A stretch of 64,000 nt of DNA, from positions 76,138,001 to 76,202,000 of the forward strand of contig NC_045696.1 in the NCBI RefSeq assembly GCF_009834535.1, given 5' to 3'. The DNA is from Camelus ferus. Taxonomy: Eukaryota. Both the position numbers and the translations under genes were made by a program. Positions 15,147 through 64,000 of the stretch are shown here, piece by piece. The stretch's first letter is position 1. Every line of letters begins with the position of its first letter. The notes below the pieces were generated by a model that ran no database searches, had not been told where the DNA came from, and saw only the letters and a program-made list of their open reading frames with translations.

Positions 15147-18100
15147 GGACAGATGGCTGGAAAAGAGGAGTCATACAGTGTGTCTATAAACAGGTTTTGT
15201 CATGTTGAAGCCCACTCAGTTCTATGGCTGATGTACTAAGGCAAACATACTACGGCCCTTCAGGTTTGAACTTACAGAGGTCATTGCCAGTTTGGATGGA
15301 AACCAATCAAAATCATAGAATCACAAATATAATAGAACTAGTAATATAACAGCCTTTAGATATCATTTAGCTAAAACTTTATTTTATATATCAGATGGAA
15401 AAATTGAAAATCAGAGAGGTTACATGGCTTAAGTGCCCCCAGTTCCTAATGGCAACTCAGGGTTTTGTTCTTCAAAAGGAACCTACATAATGAAAAATGT
15501 GTGCTATTTAATATTAAGAAAATGCACTAAGATTTAGTCCATACCCTGAGTTTACTAAACAGTTTACATATGGCAACAATATACAAACTCGGATTTTAGT
15601 AATTGTACCAAAAATAAAATCTTCATTGAAGGGAAACCCATATTTGCAGAAACAGACAAATTATAATAACAACAATCATGATTAGAAATCAATTTGGGGT
15701 CTTAAGTAATTATTCCAAAACATATTGCTGTATTATCTAGTGCCTTTAAAAGACAATCCATCATATTACCAGTTTTGACTACATTTAGTTGTTGACTGTT
15801 TTGCTGAATTTCAAGTGCAAGAAAATTAAAGCTTGATTCAGGTTCAAGTCCTAGTCCCTGATCATGAGTAAATGACAACTCAGGTAACAGCTGCAGTTGA
15901 TTGACAATGACATCTGAGCAGAGATGCTTTCAGCTGCCTCGGGGCTCCCAGGACACTTAGAAATAATTCAGATATGGTTTCTTATCAGCTGGGTATTCGC
16001 AGCCTGTAAATATGTATCCTCATTCAGCATAATGGGTTTTGACAGAATAAAAGCCACCTGGAAAACATTTAAATGTCCTCTTCAAGAGGTTGTTTAGCTA
16101 CTTTTTCTCCCAAAGGACAACCAATCAACAATACATTATTTCAGTTTGTTAACACGTAGGATGTGTCAGGCTTTTGTTTTGTTTTTGCTTTCATTTGTTT
16201 GCTCTGTGCTTTTCGTTTGTCTTTCAAATGTAGAGTAAAAAGGATCAGGTTCCTTGTCCAGCCTCACATCATATGTAGGTAAAAATGAGTTAATCTTTAA
16301 TGAAACAGAAAGTGAGTGATATAAAGGCAATTTCCTTCTAGGCTTTACATGATGGCTCTTGTTCATTTTACTGTGTTCATCAACCACATGGTTATTTATT
16401 CATATATCCACCCAGCATATATCAGCATTGCTACTTGGAAGGCATTTTGACAGATTTCAGTTCCCCACCCCCACCCTAACCCCATTATAATTTTTGGAAA
16501 AGGAGAAGTAAGTGAATACTGCTTCTATACCAGGCACAGTTTGAGTTCTAATTTCCCTTTTGTTCTGTTCTGGCGTAATTTCTGCACTCAGGGTTGGTTA
16601 GTCATTTCACAAATAAGATTACTCTCCCACCATTTTCAAAGTGGTGAAATAAAGGATTTAACCATTTCTTTTCTTGAAAACTCTAGGTGTTATGAAATAT
16701 TCTATTCTTTATAAGTTTAACAAAATTTTCCTCAGCCGGGTATTTTGAGGTGTTCTTCACTCTGCTGTTCTTTCCAAACTTACTCTAACCTCGATGACCC
16801 AGTCTTCAAGTCAGGCCCATCTATGCACCAACTCCTAAGCAAGTGTCAGGAGTACCTCAGTTATTGCCAGCACTCCTTCAACTTTGAATAAGCTCCACAA
16901 AGGCTGAGTTCTTCCAGGACCAACTTAAAGTTCAAATTTCACTGTTGGGCTCATTTGGGAACCACGGCAACCCACAGGATATCTTTCTTCATTCTCCCAG
17001 GACACTGACTTCTCTAAACCGTTTGTTTGCACATCAAATTGTGCTTTATATCATGAATTATTGTTCTGAAATATGTGTACTGTAAGCTCCTTGAGGACAA
17101 ATAATAGGGCATACATTTCCTTGTATACTTCATAGGGCTTAACAAATTATTAAGTAGTCAGATTTGCTTGAATGGGAGGAAGGTGGTCTCAGGAATGCTT
17201 ATAGTAATGATCATTGTTAAAGAATATCTACTGGGAATTTTCTCCAGCAGAAAAGTGTCCATGGAATCAGGTAAAAAGCTAAAAATCAAAACCTTGAGTT
17301 ACCAAAGTTAGGCACTAAAAAGGTTAACAAAACTTCTGCAGTCACTGTAGTTCAATTTTAAAGGTTTTGGGGTTTTTATTTGTAAGAAGCTTAGAGAATT
17401 AACTGGTCTCCCTAATGTTACATACAACAGCCTCCCAGTAAGTAGTATGTTTATTCTTCAAAGAAGTTCAGAAATCTTTGCTAATTAATTAACTCATTAA
17501 TCACTAAACACTAGCAAGCTAGAAAGAAGGTTGCAAGAAGAAAAGCAAATGGTTGTAGCAGCAGCAACTCAAAAACCTAACCATATTCTAGAAGCTGAAG
17601 GAGGGGCTGTTATGCATTTGGTGTTGCATCGGGGTTGGGGATTTCATTGTTTGGTTGGAGTATGGAAAGAGTTTATCTGGCTTTCACATTAGACAGTGTC
17701 TTGCTGAATATTGCCTGTTCTTACAAATAGCTCACAGTGCCTGTTTTTCACAAGCTGGATGCCAGGGTTTTTCACTCATATAGCAGAATGGGATACAAAG
17801 AAAACATTATCTAGTGCCCTTTATGCTGAAGCACCAAAATGTACTTCAAGAAACAAGTAGGTGGGAGGTGGGAAGAGGGAGGGGCAGAAGAGATGATTCA
17901 AAAGAGCAATCCCAGTTTTAGTAAATGAACCAAATCCTAGAATTAGAAAGAAAATGCTCAAATTGGAAGCTAAATATGTCTGACAATTTTAAATCTAGGA
18001 TAATGGAAACTTATAAAATTGAGGCTTAAGACAAAAACCATTATCACCAGATCCTTCAGCCCATATTTTGAAGGTATCTATTCAGGTGGTTTCTAATAAT

Positions 18101-19009
18101 TTTGTTTAGTTGAGATAAACGGGAAGATGTGAGTGAGTGTAGGGCAGCCTTATAGTAATGCACAGTGCCACCGATTTACTCACCCTCCAAGCAATTTTAA
18201 AATCAATTCAGCATTTCCTGGATAGGCTGACGTCACCCTGTTCATATCAGGGCAAGGACCGAGCTGCTGGCTTTGTGCTCATTAAAATTCTGTATACTGC
18301 ACTATGCGGGAGTCAGTGTCTATTTTCAGGACGACCATAAAGCAAAGTAATAAGTGCTCTTTCTTAAGAGCAAGGTGGGCAGAACAGGGAGGAGTCATGT
18401 GGGATGAGGGCCACAGAGGGAGTGGAAGCATGTGATCTGTTAATGTTTACCAAATTCTAGCAGTAAAATTAAGTGTCAGCCATGTACACTTAATAAAGCA
18501 TCAAAAATATAGAAATGAATTCAAGAGTACTCCAAGAAATCTAATCTGAGAGGGGCCAGCCAGGAAGGTAGTGACAGACAATTTAATCTGGGGAAAATGA
18601 CTTTACACCAAGGAAATTGAAAACACCATTCTCTGTTCTTCTTTTACGATTTTCATTAAGTAGTTTTTCTTCTCACAACCCACTTATGAGGGAAAATATC
18701 TGTCACCCATCCTGGTACTATTTGCATAAACATAGAACCTAGTCTCCCAGATATATAATTTGCATATATATAGTGTATATGCATAAATACACATTTACAT
18801 ACACAAACATATGTATAAATATATATCTGTCAACAGGACCCCTGGGGGCATGACTGCCATGGTAGAGGGATCCTCTGAGGTATGGCTTTGCCATGAGCCT
18901 GGATCTGAGGGTCACCTCTGCTCTGACAGAGTGAGGCAGGGAGGTAATCAAGAGCATTAGAGTTTTCTAGAGCTGAGGGAGCAAAACTTCCCAATGTAAG
19001 ATGCACCTT

Positions 19010-19215
19010 TGAAGCACAGAGAGGTTCAGTGACTTGCTCAGAACTGGGAAGTGGCAGCGCTGAGATATGATCCGAGTTGGTGTAAAAGAGAGACTTCCTT
19101 TGTTTCCTGGGCCCTAGAGAACTATGCTCTGCCTGATCCACTGGGCTGTGTCCCCACCACGCCATTTCAAAGGGAGATGTGAACTGGACCAGGAAGACAA
19201 AAGACTGAAGGTGTC
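19010..19215 (-). repeat. Left arm of a 206-bp inverted repeat
   Basis: Reverse complement of 19989-20194 with 5 substitutions and no indels by manual alignment. ORFs 18830-19165(-) and 20039-20242(+) share near-identical N-termini. Confidence 0.97.
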
Positions 19216-19988
19216 ATTCAGCTAGGCCTGCAGAATTCCTGTGGCTAATCCTTTAGTGGATGGAGTAAACTTTGCAAAAGGGAGGCTCCCCCGTGGACAG
19301 ACAGACACACACTGCTCTTAGTACAGTCTCCGAGAAATGCACGTTTCTTTAGTCCCACCTGGTAGGTAAAAGTAGCTGCCCAGGGGCTAAGAAAAAATGA
19401 CCTTGAATTCAGAACAGGACAGTCATTCTGTTATTGACCATTCCATATCAAGTATTATTTCAAGAGACAAAACCAACTCCAAATATTATTTAAAATTCTG
19501 ACTGAGGCTCCTGGGTTTTCTTCTTCTTTCAGCTGCTTTTCACATGCGCACACACACACACATGCACACACAGCCAGTGGGACCTTGCATGTGGTAAAAA
19601 GCAAGACTTTGTGTTCTAAGAAGGGCAGGCTGACCTTTCAGAGTTCACCCCAACATAAGTGTGAAGGCTCTCATCTCTCTAGAATGGGACTTACTGTTCA
19701 AAGGCAACGAAAAATTGCCTAAAGACTCAGCTTCCCTCTCCTGCTGGGTCAAGGAGAAAGGGAGATGGGAGAGTTCTTCCAGGAGGGCTTGGCACTGTGT
19801 CCACTTGGCACAGAAAGCAACTAGGCACCTCTCTGCTCACGTCCTCTATTTTTAAAGACTGGTTTCAGTTCTCTGCTGGAGGCTGTGGCCTGGCCCGGAG
19901 CAGCCAGGAGGAGGGGACCTCCTGTGCTTTTGGAGCATCTGGGATGAGAAGTGCACCATGAGAATTCATGCCACAGTCACATGAAGGG

Positions 19989-20194
19989 GACACCCTCAGT
20001 CTTTTTTCTTCCTGGCCCAGTTCACATCTCCCTTTGAAATGGCGTGGTGGGGACACAGCCCAGTGGATCAGGCAGAGCATAGTTCTCTAGGGCCCAGGGA
20101 ACAAAGGAAGTCTCTCTCTTACACCAACTCGGATCATATCTCAGCGCTGCCACTTCCCAGTTCTGAGCAAGTCACTGAACCTCTCTGTGCTTCA
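19989..20194 (+). repeat. Right arm of a 206-bp inverted repeat
   Basis: Partner of 19010-19215; spacer 19216-19988 (773 bp). Confidence 0.97.
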
Positions 20195-20335
20195 GTTGCC
20201 TCCTCTCTGAATTGGGATAGCAACAGTCCCTCCCTCAGATGATACTTAGAAAGACTGAATGAAGCCAGTTTTTAAGAGTGAGGAAAAGTGTTTTTGGAAC
20301 ACAGTAAACATGTGTAAGTGTTAGGGATGGTTATT
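20123..20335 (+). mobile_element. MIR SINE, 5' part inside the right inverted-repeat arm
   Basis: CTCAGCGCTGCCACTT..GAGCAAGTCACTGAACCTCTCTGTGCTTCAGTTGCCTCCTCTCTGAATTGGGATAG..AACACAGTAAAC. Confidence 0.8.
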
Positions 20336-21486
20336 AGACCTGCTCTTGGACTTGAAGGGAAGAGCAAAGGAGAACCAGGCTACCACACTCGTTATCCCAC
20401 CCTTGGGCCCTGGGATTGCAGATCAGGTGGGGCTGACACTGCCTTCAAATCTCACCCCAACTTTCCCCTGAGATTGTTTCTCTGGGGTGAATGGAAGCAG
20501 AGTTGTTGGCTGCCTCAGCTGAAAGGCACAGACATCCTCATTACCCTGAAATAACCTGATTAAGAGTCTATAAAAGGAGGCACTGATGCTAAGGAAGAAC
20601 CTGGTCCGCTTACTGAATAAAGGAGTTCAGGATCTAGAAACACTGTTTTGAGTGAAACCCTGGGCTTTATTATTAACAACATGAGGGAGAGAATGGAAGC
20701 ATTGAGACTTTGTTCTTTATTGTGAGTTCTTATTGTCTATAAGTAAAGTGCCCGCTCTCCAGGGAGATATGCCAGTGATTTGCAACCTGCTTGCCAGGCA
20801 CCACAACTGCAGGGGAACTGACCAGAGCACCAGAGATTTCTGGATCTAAAACTGCAATGAAATAGGTGTTCTTATAACTAAGACTAAAGATTTCAGTTTA
20901 GAGAAGAATGTGTGAAGGCTGTTTCTCCACCCTAAGCATATATTTCCCAAACCAAAAATCCAGACCTAGTATATCACAGATTTTTGTTTGGCTTCTGGGA
21001 CTGCCTTTAGGCTATCTTTAAGATAACAGTTTAAATGGCAAAATATTGACCTTTGGGGGCTATGCAGGAAAATAGGGCAGAATATTTGACTAACTTGAAA
21101 AATTCAAGAACTCATCATATACATTCATTTGACAGGGAGGCAAAATGCAGCAAATAGGAAAAGATTTGTAAAGTGGAAACCTATAGTTGCACTTTACGAA
21201 AGTGACCCTTTTGACCTTATCTGGTTCTAAGTAGCAAAGAGAAACCATAACTGGACTCTGAGTTTCCCTGGGGACTCCCAGGGCACTGTGGTCAGGGGTA
21301 GAATTACCGAAGACAGTCACAACTCAAAAAGGACACCCATCGACCTATCTGACTCTATTCTTCTTTTCATCCCAGGTCACTGAGGAGGACAGAGCATCCC
21401 TTGAGCACCTGTGCTCTGTTCAGTGTGCTCCTGGGTTAGAAATGAGAATGATATTCCCCAACCCCAACAGTGCTTTGTCTAGAAAG

Positions 21487-21685
21487 TCAGCCTAGCATAA
21501 TAGTAGGTGACCTTGGAGTCAGACTATAGGGCTTCAAATCTCATAAGCTGGGTAACCTCCCTAAGCCTCAATTTTAGCATCTGTAAAATGGAAATAATAA
21601 CCAGTACCTCACTCAATGGAATAAATGGTGACGTAAGCAAAGAACTAGGTTCATGCTAAGAATTCAATAAATGTTAACTGCTATT
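21487..21685 (+). mobile_element. MIR SINE
   Basis: TTGGAGTCAGAC..CTAAGCCTCAATTTTAGCATCTGTAAAATGGAAATAATA..TCAATAAATGTTAACTGCTATT. Confidence 0.85.
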
Positions 21686-24469: not shown

Positions 24470-26654
24470 AAGTGAATAGTACTAGTTGCAGTAACAGACT
24501 CCCAACTTTCAGTAGTTGACACCTTAAAGTTTATTTCTCACTCCCATAAATGGTTGTTCTTCAGTGAGAGCTGGCTATCCTCTAGGTGGTGATTCTGGAA
24601 CTGGCTCCTCTCATCTTGTGGCTCCATCCTCCATGACCATTGTTGCATTTGCTGGACCATCTCCAGTCAAGAGAAGAAAGCATGAAGAGGTCTTCTATTT
24701 CTTAACTACCTGGGCCTGAACACAGCTCTTCCGCTCGCCTTCCACCATGAGAAGATGCCACCTAGACACAAATTCTAGGAAATTCGATCCCTGGCTGGGC
24801 AACCAGCTCCTGGCAGGAGCTCTATCCCACTGAAAGGAGGAAGTGATCTGTGGTGAAAAGCTAGATGTCTCTCTGTGCAAGAAACCTTCAAGACACTGCT
24901 GAAAGAAACTGAAGAAGACATGAACAAATGGAAAGACACCTTGTGTTCATAGATCAGAAGAATATTGTTAAAATGTCCAAACTACCCAAAGCCATCTACA
25001 GATTCAACACAATCCCCATCAAAATACCAAAGGCATTCTTCACAAAAATAGAAGAAACAAACCTAAAATTTGTGTGGAACAAATAGGCAAAGCAATAGTG
25101 AGAAAAAAGAAGAAAGTTAGAGATATCATGCTTCCAGATTTCAAACTATACTACAAAGCCACAGTAATATGGTACTGGCACCAAAATAGACACATAGACC
25201 AATGGAAGAGAATAGAGAGCTCAGAATTAAATCCTAGCATATGCAGTCAACTAATATGACAAGGGAGCCAAGAAGACTGAACAGGGAAAGGACAGTCTCT
25301 TCAACAAATGGTGCTGGGAAAACCAGAGAAACATACATACACAGAACAGTGAAACCGGACCCCCATGTAACACCATTCACAAAAATTTACTTGAAATTGA
25401 TCAAAGACTTAAACATAAGACCTGATTCCATAAAACTTCTAGAAGAAAACATAGGGAAGAAATTCTTTGACACTGGTCTTGACAATGACTTTTCTGATAT
25501 GATGCCAAAAGCAAAAAAACAAAAGCAAAAGTCAACACATGGAACTACTTTAAGTTCAAAAGCTTCTGCACAGCAAAAGAAACATTTAACAAAATGAAGA
25601 CAACCTACAGAATGGGAGAAAAATTTTGCAAACCATGTATCAGATCAGAGGTCAATGTCCAAAATAGACAAATAACCCATACAACTTAACAAAATACCAA
25701 ACAATCTTATTTAAAAATTGGTAGAACTCATCGTAATTTAGTGTTCTTCAATTAAAAAAAAATTGGTATAAGCTAAATAGATATTTTTCCAAAGAAGACA
25801 TTAAACTGTCCAACAGATATATGAAGAGACAGTCAACATCACAAATCCTCAGAGAAGTGCAAATCAAAATCACGATGAGATACCACCTCACACCTGTTGA
25901 AATGGCTATTATCGAAAAGACAAGAGACAATAGGTACTGGTGAGGATGTGATGAAAAGGGAACCCTTGTACTGTGTTGGTGAAAATATAAATTAGTCCAA
26001 TCATTATGGAAAACAATATAAAGGTTCCTCAAAAAAATAAAAATATATCTACCACATAATCTAGAAATTTCACTTCTAGGCATATAACCAAAGGAAATGA
26101 AAACAGGATTTCAAAGAGATACATGCACTCCCATGTTTACTGCAACATTATAATGGAATATTATTCAAGTATGAGAAAGGAGGATATACTGCCATTTGCA
26201 ACAGCATAAATGGACCTTGAGTACATTATGCTAAGTGAGGTAAGTCAGAGAAAGACAAATACTGTATGATCTCACTTATATGTTGAATATAAGTCAAACT
26301 CATAAAAATAGAGTAAAATGGTGATTACCAGAGAATAGGAGGTGAGGGATAAAACTGATGTTGTTTAAGAGTACAAACTTGCAACAAGTATAAGTAAGCC
26401 ATAGAAATCAGAAAACAATATTGTACTACAATCATCAAACTTGCTAAGAGACTAAAACCTAACTATCCCAACCACTAAAAAGAAAGGATAATAATGTAAT
26501 GTGATAGAGGTGCTAAATAGTGCCACAATGGCAATCATATTGCAATATACAAATGAATCAAATAAATACACTGTACAACTTAAACTTATACAATGTTCTA
26601 TGTCAAATACAGTTGGTAAAAAATAAGAAAGGAAAACTAGCTGTCTCTTCCACA
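24470..26654 (-). mobile_element. MLT1J/K-type MaLR LTR split by an L1 insertion (24873-26632)
   Basis: GTTGCAGTAACAGACTCCCAACTTTCAGT..AAAGTTTATTTCTCACTC..CATCTTGTGGCTCCATC; the LTR terminus CTAGCTGTCTCTTCCACA reappears at 26637-26654, after the L1. Confidence 0.7.
24873..26632 (+). mobile_element. LINE-1, 5'-truncated (ORF2 3' portion and 3' UTR) with degenerate TSD
   Basis: ORF2 peptides [29 protein letters not shown] and LIKDLNIRPDSIKLLEENIGK. TSD-like AAAAGCTAGATGTCTCT (24856-24872) / AAAACTAGCTGTCTCT (26633-26648). Confidence 0.95.
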
Positions 26655-28387: not shown

Positions 28388-28487
28388 NNNNNNNNNNNNN
28401 NNNNNNNNNNNNNNNNNNNNNNNNNNNNNNNNNNNNNNNNNNNNNNNNNNNNNNNNNNNNNNNNNNNNNNNNNNNNNNNNNNNNNNN
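28388..28487. other. Assembly gap (100 N)
   Basis: Run of exactly 100 N, usually a placeholder for a gap of unknown size. Confidence 0.99.
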
Positions 28488-30974: not shown

Positions 30975-31032
30975 TGGAAGAAGAAAGAAGGGAAGGATCT
31001 GGAAGAAGAAAGAAGGGAAGGATCTGGAAGAA
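30975..31032. repeat. Perfect 25-bp tandem duplication
   Basis: TGGAAGAAGAAAGAAGGGAAGGATC x2 plus a partial third copy. Confidence 0.95.
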
Positions 31033-31159
31033 AACTTTGTAAATAGCTGTCCAGAAGTGAGCTGATATAGTTTAGACTCTAAACCATACTTTTCAGCTTA
31101 TAATAATCAAGAGTGTTAAGGGAGGGAGAATAACAAGTGACTCATTAAAAATAAAGTTG

Positions 31160-31995: not shown

Positions 31996-33715
31996 AAAGA
32001 AAGTAGGCTTAGGCCAAAACAAGACAGTTCAAGAGGATGGTAATACAAGGGGATAGAAGTTAGCCATCAAAAGAGGAGCTCTCAACCCAGTGGAGCCTGG
32101 AGTGTCAGCCCTGGGGGGGAAAAGGTCAAAATGAATCTTTAAATGCCAAGGAGAACTGTTAGAAACAACGTGTTAAGAATAGCTGGGAGGTATTCATAAG
32201 CACAATTAGCACCTTGACTGACTGGGAGCCCAAAATAAGCCACTGTGTGAGAGCCAGCAGGCGAGAGTCATAAACAGGTCCTTGATGGCACCTAAAATGA
32301 GGCGAGGCTCCCAGTGAGAGGAAAGCGTTAAGCAAACAGGGTCCAGGTTTGTCACAGGAACTTCTATGCTATGTGTTCTCCCTGGTGTTTCTAATTTGAA
32401 GAAAGAGTTAAAGTTTTTTCTATAAAAGTGTCACCCTGACATTTTTGTCACTTTTATAAAGGTTTTTGTGTCTTTATACATGCAGCCCCTGCTTGAATTT
32501 TGCCTAGTAGGAAAGAACCTAAAAACAACGTCTCTCAACGCTGGATCTGACCAGTCTTCTATTTCAGCAGCAGATTCTTAATTTGGAGAGACTGAATCAT
32601 CCATTTCTCACCTTTCTCACCAGCCAAGTATTTTTAACTTACTGTCAGCTCTGGAGTGAACACAGAGTCAATAAGGAAAAAAGATAGTTCATTTTTCACT
32701 TTTCTGCTTTTGGCTGCTGAATCCAAGAATGTATTACAGCAAAAAGGAGGGTCTTTTATGTAAAAATAATATTGGTTTGTTTAACATTTTTTTCTCCATT
32801 TTGTTAAATGTCCAAAATGAGTCCCTGACACTTAAACAAGGACCACTTCTTACCTGGAGGCAGCTTTTCTGCACTATCTCAATACAGAAACTGGGTAGCA
32901 ACCTTGATCTCCCCAGTGACTCCAGGAATAGAAAGGTCACAGGAATGCACCCAGTTTCCAGTACCAGGAGGGCCTGACCCAAAAGGTGATTCTCCGTGGA
33001 CCTGTCCTGCCAGACCTCAGAGATCTGGGACGGGAAAGAGACATAGCTTGAACTGCTGCTCAGGAGCCGCTGGGCACACTGGTACTCCCAAAACTCAGCT
33101 TCAGGAGAACAGTTTGCTCCAATGCCTAAAAGAAACAGTCAGGGTCTCATCAGGTTCTCAAGTCTAAACCGAGAAAATAGAAGTAGGGAGGCCAAAGCAG
33201 ATGATCAAATAAGAAGAGAGTGACATTTTCTCTTTATCACTGTAAGTAGATAAAATGTCAATTAAAAACATTTAAGCAAGACTTTTTGCTTCTCCTTTTG
33301 TTCATTTGATTGATAGAGAAAGAACAGATTTCACAGTCAGGGACAGAAAAGGATAAGGCAATGACTGGGTATTGCAGAATGATGAGATTCAGATAACACA
33401 GTTCTGTGTGGTGCAGTGAAAAACAGAAGGAATAGGTTATGCTCAGAATAGAAACTCCAGGGGAAATACCAAAGCCAATGAAGAGAATGATGAACAGAGG
33501 GGTTGGCCGAGTACATACTCCATGCCCAGAAGCATGGGCACAACGGAAGAGGAGGGAAGTTAACGCAAGAAAAGGTCACCTATAAAGGTGACCACAGTGA
33601 GGTGCTGAAGGTTGGGGGGAGGCCTGAAGACAAGTGACGGGGTAGGGGCTGAGGGAGGAGGCAGGCATAGTCCATGCAGAAGGTCACAGTGAAACTGTGT
33701 TCAAAGAAAAGCCCT

Positions 33716-34023
33716 AGAAAAAGACAAAAGAACATAAATACAAAACAGAAGCAGACTCATAGACATAGAATACAAACTTGTGGTTGCCAAGGGGGTGGGT
33801 GGGAAGGGACAGACTGGGAGTTTGAAATTTGTAGATACTGACAGGCATATGTAGAATAGATAAACGAGATTATACTGTATAGCACAGGGAAATATATACA
33901 AGATCTTGTAGTAGCTCACAGTGAAAAAGAATGTGACAATGAATATATGTATGTTCATGTATAACTGAAAAACTGTGCTCTACACTAGAATTTGACACAA
34001 CATTGTAAACTAAGTATAACTCA

Positions 34024-34800: not shown

Positions 34801-37724
34801 GACAAGATGTCCAAGGTTTTGTGGCTGGAATGGATTTATCTTTGGTTAAGTCCCTGGGCCAAGCCTGAAGTCTTTCACTCCAAATATAAGTGAAAGAAGC
34901 AGTCTCTAAATAACATATTTCACACACTGTTTTCTCAAGAAAGATTCCCTTCACATATCTTCCTTCCAGAAATAACTGGAAGGCCACCAGCTCCTTCCAG
35001 ATTCTTCTTTTATCTCTGGCTATAAGTGGTACATGCCTTTTCCAAATTCCTTAGGGTATTTGCGAAGTCCCACCTTGCTTTTGATTAGAGTTACTTTTCT
35101 GCCTTATCTTCCCTCTAAACTGTACATTAATTGAGAGCAGGATATGGACCTGGTTAATTGTCTTCCTCTCTACAGAGCTCAGCCTTGCTCATAGCTAGAG
35201 TTCAACAAACATTTGAGAAGGTTTGAGTGTGTGTTTTCTATCAAATTTAGCTCCAAATTAGAATAGCATTAATTTCATAACTGTATTTTATTATAATGAG
35301 GAAACATATTGTTAACCATACTTTCTTGAATGTTTAATATTCACAAAGGTTTTTACCAAACTATGGCAACTCTTAGACATGTAAAATTACAAGCTAACAT
35401 TTTAAATGCCAGTGATCTTAAAGAGTAACACATTTTCCCCACATAACCATGAAACAGAAAAATTAGTTTTGACAACTTTGTTGTAAATAAGTAAAAATGG
35501 CACATTGCAAAATATTTTTGCTTATGTAATCAAAAAATTAGATGAACATTTTAAAATATCTCAAGTAGATAAAACATTTAAAAACTAGGCCGAATTTCCA
35601 GTGTTTGCCCAATCTGGCACTGACCAGTGGCTCATGCCCTATTATTTACTGACTGAAAATTTAATTACACAAGATGTCTTTTTTTAAGGGAACACAAAAT
35701 CTTACATACAATTGTTAAGACACCGTAGCCAATAAGTTACCGTAGCCGATAAGTTACCATAGTTTTCGAAAACCAAGAAGTAGAGAGACAATGTAAGAAG
35801 ACTACTACAGAATTTAAAATAATTTGCACTGAATTTGTCTTTATTCCTCTGGTGTAGAAAGTAGCCTAAAATGTCATGTAACTGATTTGAAATTGACCAA
35901 GCAGACATTTCAGCTCTATGATTATTATTACTTTTAAAAGAGTAGAAAATAATGAGAAAGTCAGTGAGAGAAATTAAAAAAAAAAACTCTTTACTTTGGG
36001 AAAATAAACTCCTTGTTTGGAATTGTTTCCTTCTTCTGTGCCTCTGTCTGTAGAGTGAAACCAGGTGACTTTAGGCTGAGGTGTGTGGCCTCTGTAAAGG
36101 AGACTTGTTTGGGGAAGCTGGCCCTTGGCTTAAGGAAGGCCATTCTACAGACCCTGATCTAACCTCCAGCTTGATGGTATTGTGAATGCTGCTGGTGCCA
36201 GGACTGGGTAGCTCACAAAGCTTCTGCTCAATGACCCATACATTCACCAGGACTTTGTATCTTATTGCAGAAGGGCTGAAAGTGGAAGGCAGTGGCAAAG
36301 CTCTAGCCATTAGACCCCAGAAACTGCTCAGCCCCAAGGAAACATAATTGAATACTCCGGGCCATCCTGGGTTTCAAAGTATGAGCCTCTCAAGTAGAAA
36401 CTATTTCTCCTCTTCCTTTCCCTTCTCCTAACCTAAAGTCATCCTTCCTTTGAGTCATAATAGCATCACTTCCTTAATTTTCCTGGATATAACTTTTTTT
36501 CCCCAAAGCCAAAGCTAGCTTATCATTCTCATCATCCACAATCATTCCTATAATAAATATTTCCAGAGCACCTACCACGTGACTCACTGTGCTATATTTG
36601 GAGACATATGCTAAGTGAGACAGATATGGTCCTTGTATTTGTTAAGGGTAGGAGAAAAGAATGAGTGCCCTGAAGTGTAGGGAACAATGACCCTTGATCA
36701 ATCTCTTGATACAGGATGGCATATTTAAGAACATACCACACAATGAAAGACATTGGTAAGCAATGATAGAAAGTGAGGTCCCAGGGAGAGGCAAGGCTCT
36801 GTCAGAATCCCAGAAGGTTTGTCAAGCTCTAAGGCACAACAGCAGTCCCGACGCCTCCCACCTCCACCCCAATTCCAATGCTAACCTTACCACATCCTCT
36901 CCCACCCAAGACAATGACAACATTTGTATATGCCTTCTCAGTAATCCTTCTCCCACCCCCGTGGTCTGTAGTGGGTAAGTGGGGCTTCTCTGGGAAAACA
37001 GTGTTTTTTCCAAAGTGGATTCATGACACTAGCACAGGCAAGCACCTAAGGCAAAAAACAAAAAACAAAACAAAACAAAATACCCAAACAAACAAACAAA
37101 CAAAAAAAACCTTTTGGAGATTGTGACGATTTGGCTTGAGTATCAAAAGCTAAATCCTGGAGGACTGAGAACAAGCATTCATAAGAACAGGAAGACTTCA
37201 AGAGGGAGCTGGACGTCCAAAGGCCAGTCTTCCCACCACTTGCTTAAGACATAAGTCCCAAGGGCTCATGTGCTGTGAGGACCTGAAGAGTGGCCTGGCA
37301 CACTGCCCCCTCTCTGGGTTGAAACTGTGGGACCACAGTTGTGTCCACATCAGAGATCGCAGGTGAGAGTGGGGATCTCAGAACAGAGGAGGCTCTGAGA
37401 TTTCCTGGCTTCCCACAATATGCTTCAGACATGTCATAGTTCACAGAAAAGCCCCATGTTCAACAGTGATGCCAAGCTGTAGTTTTCAAAGGGCTGATGG
37501 AAGAAAATAGGCAGCAGAGCCCCAGGACAGTCCCCAAAGTCATGGCTTCCACAGTTTTCCATGACCGAAAACAGTCAAGAGTTCCAGAGGAGGCACACCC
37601 ACCCCATCCCATTAAAAAAAAAGGAGTTATAGAAGTGGCTGAAAAGGGAGGTGATCACTCATGGTTCTGGGGCAGAGGATACAGATTGCATAAACACTGC
37701 GTTTGTTACAAATGAATAATCAAT

Positions 37725-37980
37725 AACAATTTCTAATAGAGGCAAGTTTATAGGAGCAAAAACAGATCAGTTGTTGCTAGACATGAGGCCAACAGTAATA
37801 GCTGACTAGAAAGGGCCTGAAGAATTTACAGGGGGCTAGCGATGGAACTATTCTGTACCTACATATCACTTGTCATTTGTCAAAATTAATATAAATGTCC
37901 ACCAAAAGGATTGAATTTTACTAGACGTAAAATTACGTACTAGACGTAATTTTACTAGACTAGGCGCTTTAAAAAAAAAT
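37725..37980 (+). mobile_element. Old L1ME-like 3' end fragment
   Basis: AAACAGATCAGTTGTTGCTAG..GATGGAACTATTCTGTACCT..CATTTGTCAAAATT..TGAATTTTACT..TAAAATTA. Confidence 0.7.
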
Positions 37981-40835: not shown

Positions 40836-42919
40836 GCGGCAGGGGGCGGGGAGGTGGAGGAGAAGGGAGGTGGAGGAGAAGGAAGCTTACGTCACAATCT
40901 CCTAGCACCGTTGCATACCATAGCAGAATAGGTTCTCACTGTCACTGATGGTTCCTCCAGCTCAGCAAGCAGGCTGCTCAGAGCTGAAACAATCAGTGAG
41001 CCTAATTTATGAGCGGCAAAGTACACAGGCACCAACTACCAATATTGAAAGAATCAAGGGAGTAACAAAAGGTTGACAGATACTTGATTAAAATTTCATT
41101 TTTACCAAGCACCATGCTGTCAAGAAAATTGTAACAGATGATTAGGTGGTAAATTCAGAATTCCTTATGTCACTTGTTAAAAAAAGTTACCCACAACTTG
41201 TAAACAAGGACAAGAGGATGAGTGCACACTGTTTCAAAGTCACACTGAAACAGTGTTTAACAGACCTGTTTGCTCAAGGATCATTTAATTTTCTAAAATA
41301 ACCAACTATTGTTTGACTTGAAAACTTAAAATATAAATTAAAGGCTCAGGTCCTGTGAAGTTACATGTTATCTTGTAGATCTATGTCTGGTACAGAAGCA
41401 GTGTTTTCTGAGAGAAAAAAACAACCTCAAATGTTCAGGTTCCTTGTACTGCTGCTGCTTAACAGTTTGTTTCTAACACAGCAATCTAACGTAACATTCC
41501 TTCATTACATCACCTTATAAACAACCAGCTCCTCAAATGCTCTTTGAACCAGCTTTTTTATTTTATTGTTTTCCTCATTAATTGATGAGTTGGATAATAT
41601 CCTTGGCATGTGTTCATTTCCTATATTTGTATGAAAGTCATGTTTTAACTTTTTGAAAATTATACTTGGACATTCTGAGCAGTAAATAATTTAGTGTAAT
41701 TCTTCACTATACCTAGTCGTTGCTGGATTTTCAGTCTGATTGTTGGGGGAGGTGTTTTTTTTTTTTTTAATAACAGGTCTCTTTTCTTTATCTTGCAATG
41801 GTGACATAAAGTGAACAAGCACTGGGCAGACTTGTACATCCTCACTTCTGACATCCAAGAAAAAGACAGCACAGAATATTTATATCTGAGGCAGAAGGAA
41901 GGCAAACATCTGTCTTTTCCTTTTGGCCACTTCCTTCCTCCATTTTTACCTCTGAAAATTCTCCCAAGGCAAAAAAAAAAAAAAAATTATAGAAATGTTC
42001 AAATTGGGAGGGGATTCTTGTCCATTTGAACAAATGGAATACATGTTTAAAACCAAATCAAAATGCTCCTTACTGCTTTGTCAGTGTGTTGGGGTCTAGA
42101 GTCATCCCTCTTACTCAGTCCTACAGAGTTCTTACACTTAGGGGTTTCTGACCTTGCACAATAAATGTGCATGGAAGCAGGTGCTGGTATAAGACTATTC
42201 ATTTAGTTGTGGTTTTTTATAGATACATGAAACCCAATAAGAAAAATAAAAGACTGAATTATGGAAAATTTTCTAAAAAATCTAACTAGTAGCTGAAAGA
42301 ACCCTAACCTTTTGCTTCATTTCCTATGAAGATTATGCTTTCCAATTAAAATACAGAGTGGCATATGTATTTATGACCATCACTTGAATTTTCCATACAC
42401 TGAGCCTGCTATTTTTCCCTCATGTAAGAAAGCTTTTATCCCCCAACCACCATAAAAAAAAGTACAGAGAGGAAATGAGCAATCCCTGTTCATTACCATC
42501 TTGCTAATTTACAGTTAAATTGCTCTTTTTGTCTAATGTCCTTTAGAATTACTTGGTCTTCTTAAAGTCTGTTGCCTGGGTTCATGTGGCTTTTGAAAAA
42601 TACAATACTGGTTTTAATAACCCAGATTTGAAGTGATTTTGACTGTTAGCATAAATTTCATCTCTTTTTATGCCGGAAGCATTTCCTGTTTCAAAACCAT
42701 TCAGCCTGTAAATATTATGCTGCTCTTTCTCTGGCTTTTACTGGATCTGACAACTTGAGCCGTTGCCATCTAGGTATTAAGTACGGTTCTCAAATGCAAG
42801 ATGTACAGAGGCTGCCTGTTAATATTGCAGTGGGAATCTTTTGTATTAGGTTGGTTTCTGAAAATATCTCTGATGGATGCTGCTAGGCCAAAGAGCCTCC
42901 CACAACTGCAGCTCCAGAC

Positions 42920-43350
42920 AAATCCGGAGTGGATGTTTGTCAGCAGTTGTCTGAGTTCCTGTCGCAGCGCCCACCGATAGGTTGCCCGGCTGAAGGGGTG
43001 GTCTCAGTGGTGGTGGGCGGGGGACGGGAAGCCGTGGAGGGGGCTGGGCTCTGCAAACCGCTGAGCCAGAATCACCCCTGTAGAGAGCCTGATACCCAGT
43101 TCCCCACACCCCACTGAGGAGCTGAGCTGACCACAGAGGAAGGAGGCTAAAAAGGAGCTGGCTGCCTGGCATTTAGTAAATGAGCTGTCCGAAAGTAACT
43201 TGTATAGTGAGGAGAAACAGTTTTCTCTCCTCTCGATTTTCTGTGATTTCATTTATTTACCTAATTACTTCAGCCCCACCTCGTTTCAGAAACGATTCCG
43301 GGAGGCCGGGAGTGACTTAAGCAGTGCTCTACTGAACATGCACCCGGGAA
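42920..43350. promoter_or_regulatory. CpG-enriched, GC-rich patch; candidate promoter or enhancer
   Basis: 16 CpGs counted in about 430 bp against a CpG-poor background. GC box GGGCGGGG near 43014; no repeat recognised. Confidence 0.45.
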
Positions 43351-47949: not shown

Positions 47950-48365
47950 AGGCAAACCCAAGTGAAAGTCCCAGTTCAGCCACTGTATTATAGGGCAGCT
48001 CATTTAGTTTATTTTCACCCCAGTTTCCTCATATGTAAGTCATGGGTAATAGTATTTACTCTGTAGGTGTACTGTAAGACTAAAGCAATGAAACATGGAA
48101 AACACTTAGGAATAAGTGCTTAACTCAGGGTGGGAGAGGGTATAGCTCAAAAGCTAGAGTACATGCTTAACATACACAAGGTCTTGGGTTCAATCCCTAG
48201 GACCTCCTCTAAAAAGAAACAAACCTAACTACCTACTCACCACCACCACCAACCCCCTGCCAAAGTAAAATAGTTAAATAGTATAATAATACATAAATAA
48301 AATATTTAAAATCTCTTTTAAAATAAAAGTGTTTAACTCAGTGTATATGGGCTCAGTAAGTAAGA
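47950..48365 (+). mobile_element. MIR interrupted by a tRNA-derived SINE
   Basis: CCCAGTTTCCTCATATGTAA core; the MIR 3' part resumes after 48341. Confidence 0.7.
48129..48326 (+). mobile_element. tRNA-derived SINE (camelid Vic-1-like) with 15-bp TSD
   Basis: Head GGGTATAGCTCAAAAGCTAGAG (A box) and GGGTTCAATCCC (B box), AT-rich tail. TSD AAGTGCTTAACTCAG (48114-48128) / AAGTGTTTAACTCAG (48327-48341). Confidence 0.9.
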
Positions 48366-51860: not shown

Positions 51861-51923
51861 GCGGAGGAGGTATAGCTTAGTGGTAGAGTGCCTGCTCAGC
51901 ATGCACTTAGCTCAGTGAAAAAA

Positions 51924-51962
<39 letters not shown>

Positions 51963-52070
51963 ACAAACAAACAAACAAACAAACAAACAAACAAACAAAC
52001 CTAATTAACCTCCCTCCAAAAAGAAAAACATTGAAAAAATAACTTAAAAAAAATTTTTTTAAGAGAAAAA
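51861..52070 (+). mobile_element. tRNA-derived SINE (Vic-1-like), B box missing, with (TAAA)n(CAAA)n expansion
   Basis: GGTATAGCTTAGTGGTAGAGTGCCTGCTCAGCATGCAC head and CCTAATTAACCTCCC core. Degenerate TSD AAACAGTACTGCC / AAAGAGTACCACC. Confidence 0.85.
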
Positions 52071-62474: not shown

Positions 62475-62549
62475 CAGCTCTAATATAGTCTGCTTGAGTG
62501 GAGGTGTAGACAGTTTTAATACAGTCTTCTGCGGTGGAGGTGTAGACAG
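62475..62549. repeat. Diverged 36-bp tandem duplication
   Basis: CAGCTCTAATATAGTCTGCTTGAGTGGAGGTGTAGA / CAGTTTTAATACAGTCTTCTGCGGTGGAGGTGTAGA. Confidence 0.9.
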
Positions 62550-64000
62550 CGAATGCAGGTAACAAGGAGGTTAGTTTACCTGAGAGCATCTGAGAAACGC
62601 TATTCAATGTGTGGTCCAAGGACAGGTGTTGGTTACATATGAAATAAATGCAGAAACTGAGAATAAACATTTAGAATCGCTTATAGCCATTGACAAAGTA
62701 AAATCATGTCTCCTGAGTCTAATAATAAAAAATTACGACTTGTGCTTTGTATGTCTGTGAACAGCGTAGAAATTTTAAAAAGAAAGGAAAGCAGCAAGGA
62801 AGAGAAAAAGAAGGAATCTGGCCTTTTCTCACAGAGAATTTGAGCAGCACTGTCCTAAATGAACCGGGCTTGACCTGGACCCCGCAGAGGAGGGGGACTT
62901 CCCCACCAAATAAGTGGAAGAAGGTGGGACAAGGATGGTCAGAAGCACCAACTCAGAGGAGAGGGTGCAGGGAATTAATGAGAAATAACAAACCAGTGAC
63001 ATGAGACGATTCTACTGTATGTGGATTTTACTGTATGTGGGAAGAAAACCCACAACAAGTGAACAATACCAAAGGTTAGGAGATTTCATTCCAAGCTGAA
63101 GAGTCTGGACCTTATTGCACTGGCAATGGAGAACTATGGAAAGTTTTTGACTAGAAAGTACCATAATGGATTCTGCACATGGGTAGAAGATGCTCAGTAG
63201 CTCCTTGGTAATTGAACTCATTTGCCTCAGTGGCTTTCACTTAAATGCCTACCTAGGCAGGCAGACCCCATAAGCAGAAGGGCAAGGCTTGGCCATCTAA
63301 CTAGCACTTGCCTCATCTGATGGACCTACTATCTAGATCCAGCAACTATTTTCATCTGGATTATACACTCCATGTGCCAGATATACAATCTTTCAAGAGA
63401 AGCTGAAAACCTGTACCTATATAGGTACTCCTAAATTTCAAATGTTAACACTAATTCAAAAACTTGTTAAAAGATACTGTTAAGGCCAAAACAAACAGGT
63501 CTGAAAGTTGGATTTGAGGTTCAGGTCCCCAATATGTACCTCTGCTTTTGCACATAAAAAAGAGATTTATTAGGTCTTCTAAAGTGATAAGCTGCTCCTC
63601 ACATATTTTTTGGTCCCCAAAGCCTATGAAGATTATTTTTATACTCAAAAATATAATGTCTATACTGTCCTGTGGTCCTCTGTCTCCAGAGATGATTGCT
63701 GGCATTAGTGATTACTGCTGATGTGTGCTGCTGATATGACCAAATCTCATGCATCCCTCAGTTCCTTCTCTCTTCGTTCAGCAGTAAAAATTATGTGCAA
63801 TTATAGCCACCCTTTATAGCCCCTGTAAGTACTACCATCGCTAAGAGGTAGAACTGTGTCTGATTTTTAGTATCTTTATCTCTTAAAACCAGAGTACTCA
63901 GCACTCTTAATCCTGGACTGAAACTGGGCTACTCTATCCAGCCCCCAGTGAAATAGCAGGGCATTCTGCCCAGGGCATTTCACTTTTCCCTTTTCTCTGG

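What the first reader, a model, noticed from the sequence alone, without database searches (positions are those of the whole stretch)
19010..20194. Near-perfect 206-bp inverted repeat around a 773-bp spacer
Seen: 19010-19215 is the reverse complement of 19989-20194 with 5 substitutions and no indels (about 97.6%). Roughly 130 bp is non-repeat sequence and roughly 70 bp is MIR. Known: independent MIR copies are far more diverged than this, so the identity is not explained by shared repeat ancestry. I see no TIR/TSD structure of a known transposon. Inference: this is either a recent inverted duplication or an older one kept homogeneous by arm-to-arm conversion. It could mediate recurrent inversion of the spacer. 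If transcribed on either strand it would fold into a ~200-bp dsRNA stem, a plausible substrate for ADAR editing, endo-siRNA production or back-splicing.
Basis: partly seen in the sequence, partly recalled or inferred. Interest (0 to 1): 0.7.

Follow-up and report, generated by a model that had tools for sequence, protein, structure and literature searches.

The report
Small local inverted duplication, repair scar
About 200 bases of non-coding DNA were copied backwards into a spot about 800 bases away, which is a common kind of small DNA-copying accident in mammals, and nothing yet shows that this one does anything.

Summary
The inverted repeat is real: 201/206 identical, no indels, the only near-identical repeat in the window. 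It has a direction. A MIR-like SINE runs about 130 bases past the right arm but stops at the outer edge of the left arm, so the left arm is the copy and the 1,185-base unit is not a transposon. The left arm's first 5 bases recur at 19206-19210 and contain one of the five 'substitutions' (chance 1-3%). This suggests a lossless 196-base insertion, primed by a 9/10 match to the donor and closed by a 5-base microhomology. It fits the common 'Inverted Dup' class (<1 kb copied within 5 kb; PMC4617611). The scan noted similar duplications elsewhere on this chromosome. No reads, outgroup or whole genome were obtained, so age, conversion, spacer flipping, transcription and editing are untested. Public contig word shares (0.97) cannot even show that other camels carry the left arm. 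No evidence of function was found. Ordinary.

The parts
19010..19215 (-). Left arm: the derived, inverted copy of 19989-20194. The inferred insertion proper is 19010-19205 (196 nt, 4 differences from the donor).
   Evidence: the SINE profile stops at 19010; junction reading is inferred
19010..19014 (+). First 5 bases of the left arm, a direct repeat of 19206-19210. Inferred return microhomology / short target duplication; it matches donor 20190-20194 in reverse complement.
   Evidence: chance 1.0-3.2% for search ranges of 10-15 nt, up to 7.6% for 30 nt; inferred
19206..19215 (+). Inferred original target DNA matching the donor (reverse complement of 19989-19998) at 9 of 10 bases: the priming site. 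It holds the 19209 difference.
   Evidence: inferred, needs an outgroup
19216..19988 (.). 773-base spacer, 48% GC. No Rfam family; its two ORFs of 90 aa or more have no Pfam hit; only ordinary splice-like sites.
19989..20194 (+). Right arm: the donor (about 140 bases of non-SINE sequence plus the 5' part of the SINE)
20131..20324 (+). MIR-like SINE relic (name recalled) that crosses the outer end of the right arm intact
   Evidence: 52 bits, E 2.6e-15 (44.9 bits on the region alone) with a profile trained on copies outside 18800-20500
18940..19009 (.). Left flank, faintly similar to the reverse complement of the right flank (39 matches in a 70-column gapped alignment). Probably chance, possibly an eroded older part of the repeat.
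   Evidence: about 5% of random pairs score as high

Best explanation
This is a one-off, locally templated inverted duplication, and most likely neutral. Inferred mechanism: a DNA end moving leftwards (a stalled nascent strand or a resected break end) ended near 19206. It folded back, or switched to the sister strand, and paired its last 10 bases with a 9/10 complementary site about 780 bases away (19989-19998). It copied about 196 bases to 20194, inside the SINE, and rejoined the original template through 5 matching bases. That left an inverted copy and a 5-base direct repeat, with no loss of target DNA; four substitutions came later or during the copying. Shown: the repeat, its direction, the 5-base repeat, the 9/10 match, no poly(A). 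Inferred: the ancestral empty site, the order of steps, the enzymes, the age (1.3-11.7 Myr at a published camel rate if all four differences are clock-like) and the lack of function.
For: The SINE continues past the right arm only and the left flank is not SINE-like. Identity falls from 76 perfect bases to near-random at the outer end, and the inner flanks are unrelated. 19010-19014 = 19206-19210 sits exactly at the arm start and accounts for the 19209 difference. There is no A or T run of 6 or more near the junctions. Size and distance fit the commonest class of human inversion-type variants: under 1 kb, within 5 kb, 54% of 229 sites (PMC4617611); median 284 bp, mostly 1-15 bp microhomology (10.1101/2024.04.18.590093). 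Return-before-departure events leave a direct repeat (PMC7954356 S5 legend). 4 transitions, 1 transversion and no indels look like germline change.
Against: No ancestral or empty allele was seen; the junction reading rests on a post hoc 5-mer with 1-3% chance. A rival 4-mer (2.6% chance) supports a flipped-spacer history. Differences are unevenly spread (two identical blocks of 76 bases or more: P 0.016 with five differences, 0.023 with four) and the outer flanks are faintly alike (about 5%); both fit conversion. The 773-nt loop and 196-nt tract exceed what is described for short-range switches (template within 100 nt, tract up to 128) and for snap-back end joining (primer repeats mostly under 10 bp apart, some over 25), so the enzymology is open.
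Confidence: 0.72

Rival explanations
1. An older, possibly longer inverted duplication whose core has been homogenised by arm-to-arm gene conversion (one or more tracts).
For: The outer 178 bases are 176/178 identical and the inner 28 are 25/28. Two long identical blocks have post hoc P about 0.02. The outer flanks align weakly: 6 of 150 random pairs, 5 of 100 shuffles, and 30-31 of 600 pair-HMM nulls reach the score.
Against: The left flank scores below most random DNA on the SINE profile. Its local score against the right flank (21) is matched by 1 of 12 unrelated SINE tails and by 193 of 2934 random stretches. The inner flanks show nothing (76 of 150; 164-308 of 600). One inner difference is better explained as target sequence.
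Confidence: 0.12
2. The spacer itself was flipped in the event (staggered break or longer reverse copying), with the 206 bases duplicated at one breakpoint.
For: It gives the same anatomy, including the SINE running past the right arm. The last 4 bases of the left flank (19006-19009) match the reverse complement of 19984-19987 (chance 2.6%).
Against: It needs two joins with no microhomology and one unexplained base (read by eye), and it leaves the 5-base repeat and the 19209 difference as coincidences.
Confidence: 0.08
3. Whatever its origin, the repeat is used: as a long dsRNA stem (ADAR substrate, endo-siRNA source, back-splicing aid) or as the substrate of a recurrent 0.8-kb inversion.
For: Both strands fold with 202-204 of 206 arm positions paired in register, and the arm duplex is -425 / -433 kcal/mol. 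The plus strand would hold three A-C mismatches.
Against: Any 200-base repeat folds this way, and a 3:1 split of wobble pairs is what transitions give by chance. Those RNA sets hold over 800 million letters of contigs, which suggests genomic carry-over or pervasive nuclear RNA, and they give no strand or level. No Rfam hit, no Pfam hit above cut-off in 59 of the 64 long ORFs, no 1-kb bin with CpG o/e above 0.4, and no outstanding exon in the spacer. The arms are below the 400-nt LIRBase cut-off and the 654-bp lower end of the human recurrent-inversion set.
Confidence: 0.05
4. Assembly artefact, or an allele private to the assembled animal or haplotype.
For: All 14 best DNA-like contig sets stop at 0.97 of the words; absence of the left arm predicts 0.964.
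Against: A collapsed bubble plus 1-3 private SNPs predicts the same share (P 0.20-0.42 against 0.38). An artefactual copy would be identical or differ by indels, not by four transitions and a transversion (general knowledge). The only gap in the window lies 8 kb away (28388-28487). Several differences argue against a brand-new allele unless the copying was error-prone.
Confidence: 0.07
5. A young non-autonomous transposon with 206-base terminal inverted repeats.
For: Shape only.
Against: Its right end falls inside a continuous old SINE, there is no target duplication abutting the unit, and there is no further copy in the window. A paper cites the view that mammalian DNA transposons were last active at least 40 Myr ago (PMC8605555).
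Confidence: 0.01

Closest known systems
'Inverted Dup' (inv-dup) class of the 1000 Genomes structural-variant maps (PMC4617611; 10.1101/2024.04.18.590093; passages read)
   Same: Copy under 1 kb, inverted, within 5 kb of its source, no retrotransposition marks, short inferred microhomology; the median of 284 bp is close to 196-206.
   Different: Those are human polymorphisms defined against an empty allele. Here no empty allele was seen and the arms already differ by about 2%.
Short-range template switches, four-point model, with point 4 before point 1 (PMC7954356; passages and S5 legend read)
   Same: Reverse-complement copy of nearby DNA that creates an inverted repeat plus a short direct repeat.
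Snap-back synthesis-dependent MMEJ (PMC5728401; passages read)
   Same: Inverted primer repeats at the inner ends and a microhomology repeat at the outer end; the insert becomes part of a new, longer inverted repeat.
   Different: Described for primers of 3-4 nt mostly under 10 bp apart in Drosophila; this event is far larger.
Recurrent inversions between inverted repeats (PMC6748972, PMC3961182; passages read) and conversion-maintained sex-chromosome palindromes (PMC8981503; listing only)
   Same: Inverted arms over 90% identical around a unique spacer.
   Different: Arms are 206 bp against 654 bp-24.2 kb; no second orientation or cross-species conversion was seen.
Long inverted repeats / hairpin-RNA loci as catalogued in LIRBase (PMC8728187; passages read)
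   Same: Would fold into a long stem if transcribed.
   Different: Arms are below the 400-nt cut-off and there is no evidence of transcription. The class is very common (4.59 million in 208 vertebrate genomes).

Membership tests
Inverted Dup (1000 Genomes) | Inverted copy shorter than 1 kb | tested here: met
   196-206 bases
Inverted Dup (1000 Genomes) | Inserted within 5 kb of its source | tested here: met
   773 bases; donor identified by SINE continuity
Inverted Dup (1000 Genomes) | No retrotransposition marks | tested here: met
   no A/T run of 6 or more within 30 nt of the left-arm ends; no L1-endonuclease-like site seen by eye (consensus recalled)
Inverted Dup (1000 Genomes) | 1-15 bp microhomology at the junctions | tested here: inconclusive
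   5 bp and 9/10 bp inferred from a direct repeat with 1-3% chance; needs the empty allele
Inverted Dup (1000 Genomes) | An empty (ancestral) allele with the spacer in unchanged orientation | not testable with these tools
   no whole genome, no homolog among 32 of 32 metagenome hits, no read lay obtained
Short-range template switch (four-point model) | Template within 100 nt and tract up to about 128 nt | tested here: not met
   about 780 nt and 196 nt (PMC7954356)
Short-range template switch (four-point model) | Direct repeat left when point 4 precedes point 1 | tested here: met
   19010-19014 = 19206-19210
Snap-back SD-MMEJ | Inverted primer repeats plus microhomology repeat | tested here: inconclusive
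   anatomy fits but is inferred
Snap-back SD-MMEJ | Primer repeats within a few tens of bases | tested here: not met
   773-nt loop; PMC5728401
Recurrent NAHR inversion | Inverted repeats over 90% identical | tested here: met
   97.6%
Recurrent NAHR inversion | Repeat length in the described range (654 bp-24.2 kb) | tested here: not met
   206 bp; PMC6748972
Recurrent NAHR inversion | Both spacer orientations observed | not testable with these tools
   needs reads that span the 76- and 82-base identical blocks; none obtained
Conversion-maintained palindrome | Arms more alike within than between species | not testable with these tools
   no outgroup sequence obtained
Conversion-maintained palindrome | Older, eroded homology beyond the homogenised core | tested here: inconclusive
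   outer flank about 5% chance, inner flank none
MITE / non-autonomous DNA transposon | Terminal repeats at true element ends with a target-site duplication | tested here: not met
   right end lies inside a continuous SINE; no abutting duplication
MITE / non-autonomous DNA transposon | Many genomic copies | tested here: inconclusive
   only two copies in 64 kb; genome not held
Hairpin-RNA locus (LIRBase sense) | Both arms over 400 nt | tested here: not met
   206 nt; PMC8728187
Hairpin-RNA locus (LIRBase sense) | Transcribed through both arms, with siRNAs or editing | not testable with these tools
   only unlaid contig word shares

The most novel reading that the evidence does not exclude
The locus is a camel-lineage inverted duplication that, despite arms of only about 200 bases, still converts and flips its spacer, or still segregates against the empty allele. 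It also lies in a transcribed region where it creates a new, near-perfect 200-bp dsRNA with A-C mismatches. In a genome without a young abundant Alu-like SINE, it would be a datable case of an ADAR substrate born from one repair event whose junctions can still be read.
Probability: 0.07. Interest if true: 0.5.

Novelty: new member of a known kind. Interest (0 to 1): 0.17.

Why it matters
As it stands it matters little: it is one more small inverted duplication, a class that is the commonest inversion-type variant in human long-read surveys and that this scan has noted several times on the same chromosome. Its modest value is as a readable scar. The junctions give a sharp prediction for the ancestral site and suggest fold-back priming over about 780 bases, between the scales of short template switches and large rearrangements. 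It would matter more if the spacer were shown to flip on arms this short, or if the stem were transcribed and edited.

Tried and rejected
Whole-genome copy count: no genome held. Rfam at gathering threshold: 0 matches in 64 kb. Pfam on 59 of the 64 stop-to-stop ORFs of 90 aa or more: 58 with no hit and one weak hit below cut-off (SAYSvFN, 19.5 of 25 bits, 35705-36070), taken as chance; short exons were not screened, so a host gene is not excluded. Ortholog hunt with one 18-base word in metagenome contigs: 32 loci, none homologous (best extension 31 bases at 87%). No read-level data were obtained at all. The idea that the left flank is a second, independent SINE that seeded the event was rejected; an nhmmer run on the short flanks returned nothing even for the positive control and was replaced by hmmsearch. 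The idea that the SINE covers more of the arm at its 5' end was not supported. Inner-flank homology was rejected. Wobble-pair bias as a sign of selection on RNA: 3:1 among four transitions, not informative. A crude splice-site scan with recalled base frequencies found sites in the unit at densities of 0.27 per kb or more, nothing exceptional. Earlier notes near this place, on look-alike stretches or under two word sets: none. A search for a camel-specific report (12 of 319 papers listed) showed none about camels; searches were on mechanism, rates or RNA editing. This is not proof that the locus is unpublished.

Full report
Observation. The repeat is exactly as described. Arms 19010-19215 and 19989-20194 are 206 bases long and 773 bases apart, 201/206 identical without gaps, E 2.8e-96. 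The five differences are at left-arm positions 19086 (A/G), 19105 (T/C), 19188 (A/G), 19198 (C/A) and 19209 (A/G). It is the only near-identical repeat in the window; the other 8 of 9 off-diagonal self-BLAST hits are 70-81% identical.

Setting. The window is 31-46% GC in 2-kb bins. It has no Rfam match, no Pfam hit above cut-off in 59 of 64 long ORFs and no 1-kb bin with CpG observed/expected above 0.4. Short exons were not screened. Earlier notes of the scan (unchecked) call the genome a wild Bactrian camel and place this window 16 Mb after a MUC13 note and 13 Mb before an IL12A note. From recalled synteny that would be near human 3q26; I did not test it. No whole genome is held.

Direction. 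I built a profile from SINE copies outside 18800-20500 (I recognise them as MIR from memory). It matches 20131-20324 on the plus strand, running about 130 bases past the right arm, whereas on the left it stops at 19009-19010. The left flank scores -1.9 bits on the profile (915 of 1000 random stretches score as high), against 8.1 bits (32 of 1000) for the right flank. So the right arm is in its old context and the left arm is a copy of it. The same fact rules out a transposon, because the unit's right end lies inside a continuous old SINE and no target duplication abuts it.

Junctions. The first five bases of the left arm (19010-19014) recur as a direct repeat at 19206-19210, ten bases before the arm's inner end, and this repeat contains the 19209 difference. 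For 206-base stretches of the window, the first five bases recur within the last 10-15 bases in 1.0-1.7% of cases, or 1.7-3.2% if either end counts, rising to 7.6% for a 30-base range. The same scan listed five other 4-5 base repeats near these ends and six around the right arm, none at both arm boundaries in this way, so the test is post hoc. The simplest reading is that the ancestral site ran from 19009 straight into what is now 19206. Then 19206-19215 is original target DNA that happened to match the donor at 9 of 10 bases, and 19010-19205 (196 bases, four differences) is the insertion. A leftward-growing or resected end could have folded back onto 19989-19998, copied to 20194 and rejoined through the five shared bases; no target DNA is lost and the 19209 base needs no mutation. 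This is inference. There is no A or T run of six or more at either junction.

Rival histories. (a) Flipped spacer with a duplicated breakpoint. It gives the same anatomy, and the last four bases of the left flank match the reverse complement of 19984-19987 (chance 2.6%). It needs two joins without microhomology and one extra base, so I rank it lower. (b) Older repeat with conversion. The outer 178 bases differ at 2 sites and the inner 28 at 3. Two identical blocks of 76 bases or more have P 0.016 with five differences and 0.023 with four (post hoc). The outer flanks align weakly: 6 of 150 random pairs and 5 of 100 shuffles, 193 of 2934 random stretches and 1 of 12 unrelated SINE tails, and 30-31 of 600 pair-HMM nulls reach the score. 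The inner flanks show nothing, and the two flanks combined are reached by 28-31 of 300 nulls. These hints keep conversion alive but do not establish it.

Age. At 1.1e-8 per five-year generation (PMC7305198, passages), 4/196 gives 4.6 Myr (95% range 1.3-11.7) and 5/206 gives 5.5 Myr (1.8-12.7). At half that rate, an assumption of mine, 5/206 gives 11 Myr (3.6-25). PMC12337305 (passages and section 11) warns that such rates are very uncertain and puts the Old World-New World camel split near 16.3 Myr. Error-prone synthesis during the event would make it younger; PMC4052342 (passages) describes restarted forks as error-prone.

Public data. One search sampled 404 words of 17600-21600 and listed 24 runs. 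Fourteen DNA-like contig sets from six studies and two coded organisms each hold 0.97 of the words; nine are flagged as possible sources and the other five come from three studies. This does not prove that both arms are general. Removing the left arm predicts 0.964, and a collapsed assembly bubble plus one to three private SNPs predicts the same printed value with similar probability (0.38 against 0.20-0.42); a bubble alone is unlikely (0.017). Two RNA-Seq contig sets from one study hold 0.85 and 0.83, but each has over 800 million letters of contigs and gives no strand or level. No reads were laid, so junction support, spacer orientation, transcription and editing remain open. A scan of metagenome contigs gave 32 loci, none homologous. 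An artefact is still unlikely, because the differences are four transitions and one transversion with no indel and the nearest gap is 8 kb away.

RNA potential. If transcribed, either strand pairs 202-204 of 206 arm positions in register. The plus strand would carry three A-C mismatches, one U-G pair and one C-U mismatch; the minus strand three G-U pairs. That follows from any such repeat and is no sign of use. Splice-like sites in the unit are unremarkable under a crude scan with recalled weights.

Comparison with known classes. In PMC4617611 (passages), 54% of 229 characterised inversion sites were inverted duplications, nearly all under 1 kb and within 5 kb of the other copy, and not typically linked to retrotransposition. 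In 10.1101/2024.04.18.590093 (passages) they are the commonest inversion class (277 of 733; median 284 bp), mostly with 1-15 bp microhomology. This locus meets every feature of the class that I could test; the empty allele is untested. It works like a four-point template switch with return before departure (PMC7954356, passages and S5 legend) and like snap-back SD-MMEJ (PMC5728401, passages), but it exceeds the size limits of both, so I do not file it under them. Its arms are shorter than those of the 24 homology-mediated human inversions (654 bp-24.2 kb; PMC6748972, passages; recurrence in PMC3961182, passages) and than the LIRBase cut-off of 400 nt (PMC8728187, passages). I also saw the abstract and outline of 10.1101/2020.03.06.980458 and passages of PMC8605555. 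No supplements were read; size and microhomology tables in them could sharpen the comparison. Earlier notes of this scan report similar local inverted duplications of 144, 490 and 550 bases on the same chromosome (unchecked). One of them names the same closest class, which I had reached from the paper before reading it, and one pointed me to LIRBase.

Verdict. A real, single, locally templated inverted duplication of a common kind, with junctions that still suggest how it formed. There is no evidence of function. Interest 0.17; new member of a known kind.

Noticed in passing
window 28388-28487: A run of 100 N (scaffold gap), 8 kb to the right of the repeat; the only gap in the window.
   Followed up: no
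window 37916-37964: A tight cluster of short direct and inverted repeats (an 11-base word twice, a 7-base word three times, a small palindrome) that looks like a short-range template-switch or end-joining scar (by eye).
   Followed up: no
window about 30975-31035: A perfect tandem duplication of about 25 purine-rich bases (by eye).
   Followed up: no
window about 62498-62550: A 17-base direct repeat with a short spacer (by eye).
   Followed up: no
window about 450-1600, 24880-26650 and 33700-34020: L1-like 3' fragments, 70-76% alike to each other. The L1 label is recalled; Pfam gave no hit on their ORFs.
   Followed up: partly
window about 48130-48260 and 51865-52030: Two tRNA-like SINE heads followed by A-rich tails, probably a camelid SINE (label recalled).
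   Followed up: no
window about 42850-43330: A GC-richer patch with several CpGs that may be a regulatory element. It does not reach CpG o/e 0.4 in 1-kb bins.
   Followed up: partly
window 35705-36070 (-): A weak Pfam match (SAYSvFN, 19.5 bits, cut-off 25), taken as chance.
   Followed up: partly
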